Part shown: piece after piece, positions 48,901 through 51,900 of the stretch
Numbering within the stretch: position 1 is the stretch's first letter
Layout of the letters: the number at the start of each line of letters is the position of its first letter
DNA from: Escherichia coli
GTDB taxonomy: Bacteria; Pseudomonadota; Gammaproteobacteria; Enterobacterales; Enterobacteriaceae
Assembly: GCF_003018115.1 (NCBI RefSeq)
Contig: NZ_CP027457.1
Strand: one strand, 5' to 3'
Length of the DNA: 64,000 nt
Program-made: the position numbers

Positions 48901-51900
48901 AGCCGCTGAGATTTTGTCCCGGACCTGTGCCAGGTTATGCGCAATATCGTTCATTTTCCGAGGATCTTAGTATGAATATGGAAGAAATTGTGGCCCTTAG
49001 TGTAAAGCATAACGTCTCGGATCTACACCTGTGCAGCGCCTGGCCCGCACGATGGCGCATTCGCGGGCTAATGGAAGCTGCGCCGTTTGATGCGCCGGAC
49101 GTCGAAGAGCTACTGCGGGAGTGGCTGGATGACGATCAGCGGGCAATATTGCTGGAGAATGGTCAGCTGGATTTTGCCGTGTCGCTGACGAAAAACCAGC
49201 GATTGCGTGGCAGTGCGTTCGCGCAACGGCAAGGTATTTCTCTGGCGTTACGGCTGTTACCTTCGCACTGCCCGCAGCTCGAACAGCTTGGCACACCACA
49301 GATATTGCCGGAGTTACTCAAGAGCGAGAATGGCTTGATTCTGGTGACGGGGGCGACGGGGTGTGGCAAATCTACCACGCTGGCGGCGATGGTTGGTTAT
49401 CTCAATCAACATGCTGATGCGCATATTCTGACGCTGGAAGATCCTGTGGAATATCTCTATGCCAGCCAGCGATGTTTGATCCAGCAGCGGGAAATCGGTT
49501 TGCATTGTATGACGTTCGCATCGGGATTGCGGGCCGCATTGCGGGAAGATCCTGATGTGATTTTGCTCGGAGAGCTGCGTGACAGCGAGACAATCCGTCT
49601 GGCACTGACGGCGGCAGAAACCGGGCATTTGGTGCTGGCAACATTACATACGCGTGGTGCCGCGCAGGCAGTTGAGCGACTGGTGGATTCATTTCCGGCG
49701 CAGGAAAAAGACCCCGTGCGTAATCAACTGGCAGGTAGTTTACGGGCAGTGCTGTCACAAAAGCTGGAAGTGGATAAACAGGAAGGACGCGTGGCGCTAT
49801 TTGAATTGCTGATTAACACACCCGCGGTGGGGAATTTGATTCGCGAAGGGAAAACCCACCAGTTACCGCATGTTATTCAAACCGGGCAGCAGGTGGGGAT
49901 GATAACGTTTCAGCAGAGTTATCAGCAGCGGGTGGGGGAAGGGCGTTTGTGACGTTGCCATGCCCGATGTGCAAGCTTATCGGGCCTACAAAGGCAATAA
50001 ACGTCTGATGCGACGCTTGCGCGTCTTATCAGACCTACAATCGCTGCCACATGTAGGCCGGATAAGGCGTAAGGCGCGATAATATTATACACTCCAGCAG
50101 GCGTTTAAATCGCCTTAATATCCCTGCTCGAAATAGCTTTCGAGAATAATAACCGCAGAGGCAGAGTCGACTTTGCCTTTGTTAAGCGCCCGATAGCCGC
50201 CCTGTTCAAACAGACCGGAACGGGCTTCCACGGTGCTAAGACGCTCGTCATGGAGCTTTACGTCAACACCGAAACGACCATGAATACGGTTGGCAAATTT
50301 ACGCGCTCTGGCGGTTAACGGCTGTTCGGTACCGTCCATATTCAGCGGCAAACCGACGATGATTTCGTCCGGCTGCCACTCTTTCAGTAAACGCTCGATA
50401 ATGTTCCAGTCCGGCGTACCGTCCTGTGCTTTAATTGCAGGCAAAGGGCGAGCGGTGCCGGTAATGCGTTGGCCGACCGCTACGCCAATGCTTTTGGTGC
50501 CGAAGTCGAAAGCGAGTAAGGTTCCACTCATCAGGCGTGCCCCGCAACGCCAGGCATGGTGAGAATATCCACACCAATCAGTTTTGCCGCCTCGCGCCAG
50601 CGGTCGGCAATCGGCGTTTTGAACAGAATATTCAGATCTGCCGGGGCCGTTAGCCACGCGTTATCGAGAATTTCTTGTTCCAGTTGACCTTTCTCCCAGG
50701 AGGCATAACCCAGAGCCACCAATACGTCAGACGGTTGTTTATCGGTGCCGAGCGTTTCCAGCACATCGCGGGAAGTGGTCATCACCGTGTTGTCTGAAAT
50801 GCGAATGCTGGAAGCAAAATTGGAGGGCGGAGTATGCAAAATAAACCCGCGATCTTCAGCCAGTGGGCCGCCGAGCATAACCGGTTTATCCAGACGGATT
50901 GATACATCACGCGGCTCCGGCGTGATCTTCAGCTTTTCCAGAATCCCTTCAATTTTGAGATTTTCCAGCGGCTTGTTGACGATGATCCCCATTGCACCAT
51001 TGGTATTATGTTCGCAAATGTAGACCACGGAACGACGGAAAATCGGATCCTGGAGAGCAGGCATGGCAATAAGAAAGTGATGCTGTAAATTCATTGTCAG
51101 AGGTTCTGTTTCCTGGTTCAAAAAAGCAACAGCGCCCAGTATGCGTGGAAAGAAGGGCGCTGTCACTCAGAGTCTCAACGAGATCCTTCTCGCTAAGGTG
51201 GGTTACTGCTGCTGTAAACGTGCTTCGATGGCATCCATTAACATTCCGGTGATCGACACCGGAAACTCTGCTTCAATCTCACGAATACAGGTTGGGCTGG
51301 TGACGTTAATTTCAGTCAGACGGTCGCCGATGATATCCAGACCAACAAAAATCAGCCCTTTTTCTTTCAGCGTCGGCCCGATCTGACGGGCGATTTTCCA
51401 GTCACTTTCCGTCAGCGGACGAGGTTCACCGCGACCACCGGCAGCCAGATTGCCACGGGTTTCGCCCCCCTGCGGAATACGCGCCAGGCAGTACGGTACC
51501 GGCTCGCCATCCACCACCAGCACGCGTTTGTCGCCATCTTTAATGGCTGGCAGGTAATTTTGCGCCATGCAGTAGCGAGTGCCATGCTCAGTCAGGGTTT
51601 CGGCAATCACGCCGAGGTTTGGATCGCCTTCTTTCACGCGGAAAATCGACGCGCCGCCCATACCGTCCAGCGGCTTAAGAATGATGTCGCTGTGTTTCTC
51701 CCAGAACGCTTTTAGCTGCGCTTTATTGCGCGTAACCAGCGTTTCTGGCGTTAAGTCAGAGAACCAGGCGGTAAACAGTTTCTCGTTACAGTCGCGCAGG
51801 CTCTGCGGCTTGTTAACGATCAGCGTCCCTTTCTCTTCGGCACGTTCCAGAATATAGGTCGCGTAGATAAACTCGGTATCAAACGGCGGGTCTTTACGCA

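What the first reader, a model, noticed from the sequence alone, without database searches (positions are those of the whole stretch)
48952..48974. Divergent yggS and yggR start codons only 17 bp apart
The two genes are transcribed in opposite directions with almost no intergenic DNA, so each promoter must lie inside the other gene's coding sequence or the leaders overlap.
Basis: seen in the sequence. Interest (0 to 1): 0.15.

Follow-up and report, generated by a model that had tools for sequence, protein, structure and literature searches.

The report
Head-to-head yggS/yggR genes sharing promoter space
Two E. coli genes that point away from each other really do start only 17 bases apart, so each gene's on-switch almost certainly sits inside the other gene; the layout is a conserved, already annotated piece of genome packing, and it hides one untested candidate regulatory site.

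Summary
yggS (48250-48954, minus strand) and yggR (48972-49952, plus strand) start 17 bp apart. RefSeq annotates them the same way, including in K-12 (b2951/b2950).

Neither start can be moved. yggS has an in-frame stop 5 codons upstream and no other start codon before codon 85. It is identical to the crystallised protein 1W8G. YggR Met1 aligns with Met1 of P. aeruginosa PilT and follows a conserved GAGGA.

The gap is 17 bp in 28 of 30 enterobacterial species. It is 14-16 bp in four further relatives, but 33 and 168 bp in more distant ones.

No transcription start data could be retrieved, so promoter positions are inferred from three results:
- Silent sites are unusually conserved at both 5' ends.
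- The two most conserved 7-codon windows of 1,778 are yggS codons 39-45 and yggR codons 7-13. The first is exactly a perfect CRP-S-type palindrome, TGCGA-N6-TCGCA. The second overlaps candidate yggS -10 hexamers.
- Two Citrobacter genomes carry an islet between the genes, flanked by a 293-bp duplication of the junction. Each gene keeps its partner's 5' end.

Verdict: a real, ordinary, already annotated arrangement with promoters probably embedded in coding sequence. CRP/Sxy control of yggR is an untested lead.

The parts
48250..48954 (-). yggS coding sequence (PLP homeostasis protein, 234 aa); ATG is the reverse complement of 48952-48954
   Evidence: annotation; 100% identical to PDB 1W8G over residues 1-234; in-frame stop 5 codons upstream, next in-frame start at codon 85.
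48972..49952 (+). yggR coding sequence (PilT-family type IV pilus retraction ATPase homologue, 326 aa); ATG at 48972-48974
   Evidence: Met1 aligns to Met1 of P. aeruginosa PilT 3JVU, E=2.7e-82; nearly all close homologues are 326 aa and carry PF00437.
48955..48971 (.). 17-bp spacer TTTCCGAGGATCTTAGT. It holds the yggR Shine-Dalgarno GAGGA (48960-48964) and, on the other strand, the last 17 nt of the yggS leader (..ATCCTCGGAAA-ATG). The left 10 nt are near-invariant and the right 7 nt vary.
   Evidence: alignment of 30 genomes.
48972..49034 (-). Block of about 62 nt, near-invariant on both strands, covering yggR codons 1-21. It is the inferred yggS core promoter and leader. Invariant non-preferred codons: L9 CTT, S10 AGT, V11 GTA, K12 AAG, L18 CTA.
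   Evidence: alignment. (codon table); silent-site divergence 0.10-0.21 against about 0.55 in the rest of the gene; codons 7-13 rank 2nd of 1778 windows.
48999..49027 (-). Candidate yggS promoter 1: -35 TGTAGA (49027->49022), 17-nt spacer, -10 TACACT (49004->48999). Predicted start about 48992, leader about 38 nt.
   Evidence: PWM score at the 99.56th percentile of the window. TG(T/C)AGA-17-TACACT is kept in relatives with 61% and 51% PilT identity. Inferred, not mapped.
49006..49035 (-). Candidate yggS promoter 2, overlapping the first: -35 TGCACA (49035->49030), 18-nt spacer, -10 TATGCT (49011->49006). Predicted start about 48999.
   Evidence: 99.4th percentile; the -10 is kept as TATGCT or TATGTT in distant relatives. 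Inferred.
48820..48841 (.). 22-bp CRP-type site TTCTGCGATGGCGCTCGCAGGT, with a perfect CRP-S core TGCGA-N6-TCGCA at 48823-48838. It lies inside yggS codons 39-45, and its centre is 141.5 bp upstream of the yggR ATG.
   Evidence: the only exact match in 64 kb, 0.15 expected; yggS codons 39-45 are the most silent-site-conserved 7-codon window of 1778 (0 of 373 pairs differ); right half TCGCA is invariant except in Cedecea; left half is TTCGA in most Citrobacter and Klebsiella. No binding data.
48842..48879 (+). Conserved block in yggS codons 26-38 with the best sigma-70-like candidate for yggR: -35 TTGTTT (48843-48848), 18-nt spacer, -10 TAATTT (48867-48872). Predicted start about 48879.
   Evidence: 99.66th percentile of the window; silent-site divergence 0.18-0.25 against about 0.45. 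L32 CTT, A33 GCA and K36 AAA are invariant. Inferred.
48806..49098 (.). Window equivalent of the 293-bp segment duplicated in two Citrobacter genomes (yggS codons 1-50, the spacer, and yggR codons 1-42). It marks an outer bound of the shared regulatory region.

Best explanation
yggS and yggR form an old, conserved head-to-head gene pair. Their 17-bp spacer contains only the two translation-initiation regions. The promoters are therefore embedded in coding sequence.

The yggS promoter, which drives a housekeeping operon yggS-yggT-yggU-rdgB-hemW, lies inside yggR codons about 10-21. The candidates are TGTAGA-17-TACACT and/or TGCACA-18-TATGCT, with a start at about 48992-48999.

The yggR promoter and its control region lie inside yggS codons about 26-45. 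The candidate is TTGTTT-18-TAATTT, with a start at about 48879. It is preceded by a CRP-type palindrome at 48820-48841.

Because each start site lies beyond the other, the two promoters fire towards each other. The two mRNAs would share a complementary 5' stretch of about 70-120 nt before the gene bodies diverge. That geometry predicts mutual transcriptional and antisense interference. The well-expressed yggS unit would tend to keep the weak, probably activator-dependent yggR promoter silent.

Shown: the spacing, both start codons, their conservation, the silent-site constraint and the Citrobacter duplication. Inferred: the promoter hexamers, the start sites, the overlap, the interference and any role of CRP.
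For: - Both starts are verified.
- The gap is 17 bp in 28 of 30 enterobacterial species. It is 15 and 14 bp in relatives with 61% and 51% PilT identity.
- Silent-site divergence falls to 0.10-0.21 in yggR codons 1-25, and to 0.12-0.25 in yggS codons 1-20 and 26-50. The gene bodies run at about 0.45-0.55.
- yggS codons 21-50 (0.26) lie outside the range of the same codons in eight neighbouring genes (0.33-0.60).
- The two lowest of 1778 seven-codon windows are yggS 39-45 and yggR 7-13.
- Rare codons are invariant where the candidate hexamers lie, and those hexamers persist in distant relatives.
- PWM candidates in both directions fall in the top 0.3-0.6% of the window.
- In two Citrobacter species an inserted islet is flanked by a 293-bp duplication of exactly this junction. 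Intact yggS keeps yggR codons 1-42 upstream, and intact yggR keeps yggS codons 1-50 upstream.
- Read-through into yggS from the ruvX side is opposed by a published Rho termination region antisense to yggR, at MG1655 3094341 (+), which is about window 49711 (-) (PMC7815308 Supplementary file 2).
Against: - No transcription start site for either gene could be retrieved.
- The strict sigma-70 consensus scan found no promoter in 48400-49500. The PWM candidates are only moderate matches.
- Reduced silent-site divergence in the first 20 codons is common. Neighbours yqgE (0.155) and gshB (0.162) come close to yggR (0.10), so the yggR block is only modestly beyond a generic 5' effect.
- The conserved blocks also encode conserved protein motifs: SVKHNVSDLHL in PilT and LLAVSKTKP around the PLP lysine in YggS.
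- The Citrobacter duplication could be a mechanical by-product of integration and not the result of selection.
- The best -10 candidate would put the CRP-type site at about -48.5, which is not a standard activating position.
Confidence: 0.62

Rival explanations
1. yggR has no working promoter of its own and is a silent, decaying relic of a type IV pilus system. Only yggS has an embedded promoter. On this view the conservation in yggS codons 26-45 reflects constraints on yggS itself: the mRNA hairpin, codon choice around the PLP-binding lysine, or translation speed.
For: - yggR is often truncated or frameshifted: 104 aa in Leclercia, 44 aa in one C. amalonaticus, and clusters of 290-313 aa in E. 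coli and Shigella.
- It has 10 amino-acid differences between this strain and K-12, while YggS has none.
- No strict sigma-70 match was found.
- The palindrome folds into a -9 to -10 kcal/mol hairpin in the yggS mRNA of E. coli, Cedecea and L033.
Against: - yggR is intact at 326 aa with a conserved start and Shine-Dalgarno sequence in 26 of 30 species.
- The hairpin is lost in the Citrobacter freundii complex (-3 kcal/mol) and in L034 (-1.3 kcal/mol). It is lost through one-sided changes, yet silent sites stay invariant there.
- The Citrobacter duplication keeps yggS codons 1-50 in front of the intact yggR.
Confidence: 0.2
2. The palindrome at 48821-48840, with the T-rich run after it, is an intrinsic terminator or RNA hairpin on the plus strand. 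It would stop antisense transcripts running through yggS and would not be a protein-binding site.
For: One search lists it as terminator-like (7-bp stem, loop of 6, then TTTTGTTTTA). One search gives -8.9 kcal/mol in E. coli.
Against: - Terminator-like hits are no more frequent here than in shuffles: 3 found against 1.3 expected.
- The stem is broken without compensation in most Citrobacter and Klebsiella (G to T in one arm) and in L034.
- The T-run is the complement of the conserved Lys-Thr-Lys codons.
Confidence: 0.08
3. yggS is transcribed mainly by read-through from the upstream same-strand operon (gshB-yqgE-ruvX), running antisense across the whole of yggR. No promoter inside yggR would then be needed.
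For: ruvX lies on the same strand, 162 bp beyond the yggR stop codon.
Against: - A Rho termination region antisense to yggR is reported at MG1655 3094341 (+), 757 nt before yggS (PMC7815308 Supplementary file 2).
- A REP-like element lies between ruvX and yggR.
- The 62-nt invariant block directly upstream of yggS would be unexplained.
- In Citrobacter L018 and L025 the intact yggS is separated from yggR and ruvX by a foreign islet and keeps only 144 bp of native upstream DNA.
Confidence: 0.06
4. One of the two start codons is mis-annotated, and the true intergenic region is of ordinary length.
For: The yggR frame has other in-frame starts at Met3, Val7 and Met34, and the frame is open upstream to TTG 48897.
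Against: - Met3 or Val7 would give only 23 or 35 bp. Met34 would delete the conserved PilT N-terminus that aligns from residue 1.
- Upstream starts would make the genes overlap, and they are blocked by stop codons in some genera.
- yggS has no alternative start at all.
Confidence: 0.02

Closest known systems
Face-to-face (convergent, overlapping) promoter pairs that cause transcriptional interference, such as coliphage 186 pR/pL, IS10 pIN/pOUT and Listeria 'excludons' (from my own knowledge of the literature)
   Same: Two promoters on opposite strands whose start sites lie beyond each other. Polymerases would meet head-on, and the two RNAs would carry complementary 5' ends of tens to about 100 nt. 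A strong and a weak partner is the usual pattern.
   Different: Here both promoters are inferred and not mapped. Both would lie inside protein-coding sequence of the partner gene. No interference or antisense effect has been measured.
Symmetric bidirectional promoters with shared -10 regions and divergent, non-overlapping transcripts (described for bacteria by Warman et al. 2021; from my own knowledge)
   Same: A divergent gene pair served from a very compact piece of DNA.
   Different: A shared core in the 17-bp spacer would put the yggR start downstream of its own Shine-Dalgarno sequence and ATG. The hexamer needed for a leaderless yggS (48966->48961, GATCCT) is not -10-like. That geometry was tested here and does not fit.
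CRP-S (Sxy-dependent CRP) promoters of the gamma-proteobacterial competence regulon (Cameron & Redfield 2006, PMC1635313; Sondberg et al. 2019, PMC6728893)
   Same: The core TGCGA-N6-TCGCA with C6/G17 is matched exactly. The site lies upstream of a type IV pilus / DNA-uptake-related gene. One half-site (TCGCA) is conserved across genera and the other is degenerate, as described for E. coli CRP-S sites.
   Different: - yggR/pilT is not mentioned in the CRP-S papers I could read.
- The site is inside a coding sequence.
- The E. coli version is fully symmetric, and in a Psxy reporter such a site was active without Sxy.
- Spacing to a start site is unknown.
- There are no binding or induction data.
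The conserved divergent yggS-pilT linkage in other proteobacteria (Acidovorax citrulli and plant pathogens, PMC8787154; review PMC9605639; Neisseria yggS-pilT-pilU locus, PMC5610715)
   Same: The same two gene families, contiguous and divergently transcribed, so the pairing is ancient and already published.
   Different: In the passages I searched, those papers describe the linkage and not the spacing or promoter positions. The spacing varies: 14-17 bp in the enterobacterial group, 33 bp and 168 bp in more distant relatives.
Integrating elements that carry a copy of the end of their target gene and so restore it after insertion, such as islands in tRNA genes (from my own knowledge)
   Same: In Citrobacter L018 and L025 the inserted islet is flanked by a 293-bp direct repeat that leaves both interrupted genes complete.
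   Different: The repeat restores two 5' ends and their shared upstream region, not a 3' end. No integrase lies within the 1-kb insert, which carries only a DUF3828 gene.

Membership tests
YggS / PLPBP (COG0325) PLP homeostasis protein | Full-length sequence match to a characterised family member, including the N-terminus and the PLP-binding lysine | tested here: met
   100% identical to E. coli YggS 1W8G over residues 1-234, E=7e-153. K36 lies in the AVSKTKP motif.
PilT/PilU type IVa pilus retraction ATPase | T2SSE ATPase domain with a Walker A motif, colinear with solved PilT structures from residue 1 | tested here: met
   P. aeruginosa PilT 3JVU, E=2.7e-82, residues 1-324 against 1-327, with Walker A GATGCGKST aligned to GPTGSGKST. 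PF00437 in homologues. Retraction activity itself cannot be tested here.
Overlapping face-to-face promoter pair (transcriptional interference) | Start codons or regulatory regions closer than one RNA polymerase footprint, forcing promoters past each other | tested here: met
   17-bp spacer, with the yggR Shine-Dalgarno sequence at 48960-48964.
Overlapping face-to-face promoter pair (transcriptional interference) | Nucleotide-level constraint, beyond what the protein requires, in the coding DNA where the promoters should lie | tested here: met
   It is strongest for yggS codons 39-45 and yggR codons 7-13, and partly confounded by the general 5'-end effect.
Overlapping face-to-face promoter pair (transcriptional interference) | Two mapped start sites on opposite strands with overlapping transcripts, and measured interference | not testable with these tools
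   No start-site data could be retrieved.
CRP-S (Sxy-dependent CRP) promoter | 22-bp CRP site with a TGCGA core (C at position 6, G at position 17) | tested here: met
   TGCGATGGCGCTCGCA at 48823-48838 is an exact match and unique in 64 kb. It is also present in K-12.
CRP-S (Sxy-dependent CRP) promoter | The site is conserved at the same position upstream of orthologous genes (phylogenetic footprint) | tested here: met
   The TCGCA half is invariant in 29 of 30 genomes. Silent sites of the whole 22-mer do not vary. The left half is TGCGA or TTCGA, depending on an Ala/Glu difference in YggS.
CRP-S (Sxy-dependent CRP) promoter | Class-I-like spacing between the site and the transcription start (centre near -61.5 or further turns) | tested here: inconclusive
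   The start site is unknown. The best PWM -10 (48867-48872) puts the centre at about -48.5. A weaker -10, GAGATT at 48908-48913, would put it at about -90.
CRP-S (Sxy-dependent CRP) promoter | Asymmetric half-sites, as described for E. coli CRP-S sites and needed for Sxy dependence | tested here: not met
   The E. coli site is fully symmetric. A symmetric TGCGA/TCGCA site in Psxy was active regardless of Sxy (PMC6728893). The Citrobacter and Klebsiella version, TTCGA-N6-TCGCA, is asymmetric.
CRP-S (Sxy-dependent CRP) promoter | Induction requires cAMP-CRP and Sxy, and CRP binds the site | not testable with these tools
   yggR is not mentioned in the CRP-S literature held. Sinha et al. 2009 is not held.
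Symmetric bidirectional promoter | A shared -10 region between two outward-facing start sites that both lie upstream of their genes' translation signals | tested here: not met
   Only 17 bp lie between the ATGs, with GAGGA at 48960-48964. No -10-like hexamer lies in the spacer in either orientation.

The most novel reading that the evidence does not exclude
yggR, the PilT-type pilus retraction ATPase of E. coli's cryptic type IV pilus / DNA-uptake machinery, may be an unrecognised target of cAMP-CRP, with or without Sxy. Control would come from a CRP-S-type site hidden in codons 39-45 of the housekeeping gene yggS. The face-to-face arrangement would couple yggR induction to interference with the yggS (PLP homeostasis) operon. 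The site would have been missed because earlier CRP-S searches started from Haemophilus genes, which by my recollection include no pilT, and because they searched the promoter regions of those orthologs (PMC1635313).
Probability: 0.22. Interest if true: 0.45.

Novelty: new member of a known kind. Interest (0 to 1): 0.25.

Why it matters
On its own the 17-bp spacing is a fact already in the annotation. Its value is as a clean, deeply conserved example of promoters embedded in a neighbour's coding sequence.

It shows that silent sites in the first 20-50 codons of both genes are not free to vary. That matters for recoding, for codon optimisation, and for knock-outs. A 'clean' deletion of yggR is likely to remove the yggS operon promoter, and a deletion of yggS is likely to remove yggR control DNA. 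Phenotypes assigned to either single mutant may therefore be polar.

If the CRP-type site is real, it would add the missing retraction ATPase to the E. coli competence regulon. It would also be an example of a transcription-factor site maintained inside a coding sequence.

Tried and rejected
- **Published start sites.** I looked in Thomason 2015 and Sinha 2009 (not held), Conway 2014 (no supplements held), Kim 2012 (table cut, nothing near 3.09 Mb), Ettwiller 2016 (file cut), Yan 2018 (no yggS or yggR) and Mendoza-Vargas 2009 (none). Full-text searches for yggS with 'transcription start' and for yggR with CRP-S also gave nothing useful.
- **Strict sigma-70 scan.** No hits in 48400-49500. A rough PWM built from remembered consensus frequencies was used instead and is only indicative.
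- **Rfam.** Nothing at the junction.
- **Re-annotation of either start.** Rejected.
- **Leaderless yggS or a shared bidirectional core in the spacer.** Rejected on geometry and sequence.
- **Hairpin or terminator reading of the palindrome.** Disfavoured, because the stem is lost without compensation in several genera.
- **Read-through from ruvX.** Disfavoured by a published Rho termination region.
- **Motif enrichment.** With one mismatch allowed, the CRP-S core is no more frequent than chance: 3 found against 4.1 expected. The case rests on position and conservation only.
- **CRP-S weight matrix.** It could not be built because the published site lists are not held.
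Full report

Yes. The plus strand reads ...gtt CAT tttccgaggatcttagt ATG aat atg gaa.... CAT at 48952-48954 is the reverse complement of the first codon of a 234-aa ORF on the minus strand (48250..48954). 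ATG at 48972-48974 opens the annotated 326-aa yggR reading frame on the plus strand, whose ORF stays open upstream to TTG 48897. Seventeen bases, 48955-48971, lie between them.

The window is E. coli. The 1.7-kb segment is 100% identical to several ETEC O169:H41 chromosomes, and 5425 of 5426 complete E. coli genomes hold it. RefSeq annotates exactly these two starts and this gap in an identical strain. The same holds in K-12 MG1655, where yggR b2950 is 3094100-3095080 and yggS b2951 is 3095098-3095802. So the spacing is already part of the standard annotation. The other four divergent gene pairs annotated within window 1-49661 are 152, 160, 250 and 404 bp apart, which makes 17 bp an outlier locally.

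**2. Could a start codon be wrong?**

For yggS:
- An in-frame TAA lies five codons upstream of the ATG.
- The next in-frame ATG, GTG or TTG is codon 85, well past the PLP-binding Lys36.
- The protein is identical over residues 1-234 to crystallised E. coli YggS, 1W8G.

For yggR:
- Met1 aligns with Met1 of P. aeruginosa PilT (3JVU, E=2.7e-82, residues 1-324 against 1-327).
- GAGGA at 48960-48964 lies 7 nt before the ATG and is conserved.
- Almost all close homologues are 326 aa.
- Starting at Met3 or Val7 would widen the gap only to 23 or 35 bp.
- Upstream GTG or TTG starts would make the genes overlap, and stop codons block them in some genera.

**3. Conservation of the arrangement**

One scan of species-representative genomes returned 30 loci from Escherichia, Citrobacter, Salmonella, Klebsiella, Cedecea, Leclercia and Enterobacter. 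The gap is 17 bp in 28 of them, 16 bp in a Klebsiella MAG and 14 bp in Cedecea. In the spacer, TTTTCCGAGGAT is nearly invariant. The 5-7 nt just before the yggR ATG vary.

More distant PilT relatives came from the 50%-identity representative library. All have a yggS homologue divergently upstream:

| PilT identity | Gap |
|---|---|
| 61% | 15 bp |
| 51% | 14 bp |
| 50% | 33 bp |
| 45% (yggS-proC-yggT operon) | 168 bp, AT-rich |

The divergent yggS-pilT linkage itself is already published for Acidovorax and other plant pathogens and is visible in Neisseria (PMC8787154, PMC9605639, PMC5610715). The extreme compaction is a feature of the enterobacterial branch and its near relatives.

**4. Where are the promoters?**

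I could not retrieve a mapped transcription start site for either gene. What follows is inference from sequence and comparison.

*Geometry.* The yggR Shine-Dalgarno sequence must be transcribed. So the yggR start site lies left of 48960, and its -10 element lies inside yggS. A yggS transcript with any leader must start inside yggR. A leaderless yggS would need a -10 at 48966->48961, which reads GATCCT.

*Silent-site conservation.* I used 13 representative genomes. The measure was the fraction of same-amino-acid codon pairs that use different codons.
- yggS: about 0.45 in the gene body, 0.12-0.21 in codons 1-20, and 0.18-0.25 in codons 26-50.
- yggR: about 0.55 in the gene body, and 0.10-0.21 in codons 1-25.

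*Control.* The first 20 codons of neighbouring genes are also depressed: yqgE 0.155, gshB 0.162, rdgB 0.25. So the yggR value, although the lowest of 354 windows, is only modestly beyond a generic 5'-end effect. In contrast, yggS codons 21-50 (0.26) lie outside the 0.33-0.60 range of the same codons in eight neighbours.

*Finest scale.* Of 1778 seven-codon windows in nine genes, the two lowest are these:
- Rank 1: yggS codons 39-45, with 0 of 373 pairs differing.
- Rank 2: yggR codons 7-13, at 0.023.

**5. The yggS side: a promoter inside yggR**

On the minus strand, the block CACAGGTGTAGATCCGAGACGTTATGCTTTACACTAAGGGCCACAATTTCTTCCATATTCAT (49033->48972) is almost invariant in all 30 genomes. 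It forces non-preferred codons in yggR that never vary in the 12 representative genomes with intact yggR, from seven genera: L9 CTT, S10 AGT, V11 GTA, K12 AAG and L18 CTA.

A rough sigma-70 weight matrix places three overlapping candidates here, all in the top 0.6% of the window:
- TGTAGA-17-TACACT, start about 48992.
- TGCACA-18-TATGCT, start about 48999.
- TTTACA-17-TTCCAT, start about 48971. Its -10 loses the essential final T in Klebsiella.

TACACT is the exact complement of the S10-V11 codons. TG(T/C)AGA-17-TACACT and TATG(C/T)T persist in the relatives with 61% and 51% PilT identity. They are absent in the relative with a 33-bp gap. I therefore place the yggS core promoter at 49035-48999, with a leader of about 38-45 nt. 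The conserved PilT motif SVKHNVSDLHL is a confounder, because it fixes two of every three bases.

**6. The yggR side: a control region inside yggS**

Before computing any conservation I searched for the CRP-S core, because YggR is a PilT homologue and the E. coli type IV pilus and DNA-uptake genes belong to the CRP/Sxy regulon (PMC1635313). TGCGATGGCGCTCGCA at 48823-48838 is an exact match to TGCGA-N6-TCGCA. It is the only one in 64 kb, against 0.15 expected, and 14 of 100 shuffles contain one. With one mismatch allowed there is no enrichment. On its own the match is weak evidence.

Its 22-bp frame, 48820-48841, coincides with yggS codons 39-45, which is the single most silent-site-conserved window found. 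The codon counts are P39 CCT 13/13, A40 GCG 13/13, S41 AGC 12/12, A42 GCC 11/12, I43 ATC 11/11, A44 GCA 7/7 and E45 GAA 12/12. Alanine codons on either side vary freely.

The right half, TCGCA, is invariant except in Cedecea (CCGCA). The left half is TGCGA or, where YggS has Glu instead of Ala44, TTCGA. One conserved half and one degenerate half is how E. coli CRP-S sites are described. A fully symmetric TGCGA/TCGCA site, as in E. coli here, was active without Sxy in a Psxy reporter (PMC6728893).

Just downstream, GGTTTGGTTTTACTGACTGCAAGCAACGTAACTTCTTC is conserved, with L32 CTT, A33 GCA and K36 AAA invariant. It holds the best plus-strand promoter candidate, TTGTTT-18-TAATTT, at the 99.66th percentile with a start at about 48879.

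Weak points:
- That -10 would put the CRP-type site centre at about -48.5, which is not a standard activating position.
- The region encodes the conserved LLAVSKTKP motif.
- The CRP-S papers I could read never mention yggR or pilT, and the key regulon paper (Sinha 2009) is not held.

The same palindrome scores as a terminator-like hairpin (-8.9 kcal/mol). However, the stem is lost through uncompensated one-sided changes in the Citrobacter freundii complex, Klebsiella and L034. Silent sites nevertheless remain fixed in the Citrobacter and Klebsiella representatives. That argues against an RNA-structure explanation.

**7. A natural experiment**

In Citrobacter youngae CCUG 30791 (L018) and C. 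portucalensis A60 (L025), a 962- or 1157-bp AT-rich islet (34% GC) lies between the two genes. It carries a DUF3828 gene. The islet is flanked by a 293-bp direct repeat of 98-99% identity. The repeat corresponds to window 48806-49098, that is, yggS codons 1-50, the 17-bp spacer and yggR codons 1-42.

The result is that both genes stay intact. Intact yggS keeps a truncated yggR 5' end (144 bp) as its upstream DNA. Intact yggR keeps a truncated yggS 5' end (167 bp). The left boundary, 48806, lies 14 bp outside the CRP-type site. This is what one expects if each gene's promoter lies within the other's first 40-50 codons, and it sets outer limits for them. It is suggestive and not proof, because the duplication could simply be how the islet integrated.

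**8. Alternatives**

Read-through from the same-strand gshB-yqgE-ruvX genes across antisense yggR is unlikely to supply yggS. Adams et al. 2021 list a Rho termination region at MG1655 3094341 (+), antisense to yggR. That corresponds to about window 49711 (-), 757 nt before yggS (PMC7815308 Supplementary file 2). A REP-like element also lies between ruvX and yggR.

That yggR is simply silent and promoterless cannot be excluded. It is frequently truncated and has 10 amino-acid differences between this strain and K-12, while YggS has none. Even so, it is intact with a conserved start in 26 of 30 species.

**9. How it most likely works**

The 17 bp contain only translation signals. These are GAGGA for yggR and, on the other strand, its complement within the A-rich end of the yggS leader, which has at best a weak Shine-Dalgarno sequence.

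Each promoter sits inside the partner's 5' coding region. The two start sites therefore lie beyond each other, and the promoters face each other across about 70-120 bp. This predicts complementary 5' leaders and polymerase collision or occlusion. The constitutively used yggS promoter would damp a weak, probably activator-dependent yggR promoter.

I put 0.62 on the embedded, face-to-face promoter architecture as a whole. The yggS half is more secure than the yggR half. I put about 0.2-0.25 on the conserved palindrome being a working CRP or CRP-S site.

**10. Novelty and score**

The spacing and the gene linkage are known. Promoters embedded in a neighbour's coding sequence, and face-to-face promoters, are known kinds of arrangement. 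This particular pair has not been dissected in the literature I could search, so I file it as a new member of a known kind with low-to-moderate interest (0.25).

The practical consequence is that deletions or recoding of either gene's 5' end are likely to disturb the other gene. The one lead worth an experiment is the perfectly conserved CRP-S-type site inside yggS.

Noticed in passing
L018 1580-3127 and L025 1385-3127 (window equivalent 48806-49098): In Citrobacter youngae CCUG 30791 and C. portucalensis A60, a 962- or 1157-bp AT-rich islet (34% GC) carrying a DUF3828 gene sits between yggS and yggR. It is flanked by a 293-bp direct duplication of the head-to-head junction, so both genes remain intact. 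The origin and integration mechanism of the islet are unknown.
   Followed up: partly
window 48385-48459 (yggS codons 166-190): This is a second island of low silent-site divergence inside yggS (0.22-0.30 against about 0.45), about 150-210 bp upstream of yggT. A published NsrR ChIP-seq peak and a predicted NsrR site lie in this part of yggS (PMC5320621). That suggests an internal yggT promoter or operator.
   Followed up: partly
window about 52538-52627 (rsmE codons about 91-120): Several of the lowest silent-site-divergence windows among the nine genes fall here (0.04-0.20), far from any gene start. The cause is unexplained. It may be an internal regulatory or RNA element upstream of gshB.
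   Followed up: no
window 49961-50035 (+): There is a match to Rfam naRNA4 (a REP-derived nucleoid-associated RNA) at 44.5 bits, below the gathering score of 59.5, E=3.9e-6. It lies in the convergent gap between yggR and ruvX and is probably a REP element.
   Followed up: no
window about 49711 (-), equal to MG1655 3094341 (+): Adams et al. 2021 (PMC7815308, Supplementary file 2) list a Rho termination region antisense to yggR here. Transcription leaving ruvX therefore runs into the 3' end of yggR and is stopped by Rho.
   Followed up: partly
window 48972-49952; L028, L031; protein clusters P0008-P0024: yggR looks prone to decay. It is reduced to 104 aa in Leclercia NCTC13032 and 44 aa in one C. 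amalonaticus assembly. Clusters of 290-313 aa occur in E. coli and Shigella. This strain differs from K-12 at 10 residues, including S131C in the Walker A loop, whereas YggS is identical. Some truncations may be assembly errors.
   Followed up: partly
window 594-2285 (-): RefSeq marks the fatty acyl-AMP ligase gene here as a pseudogene with an internal stop in the identical ETEC chromosome.
   Followed up: no
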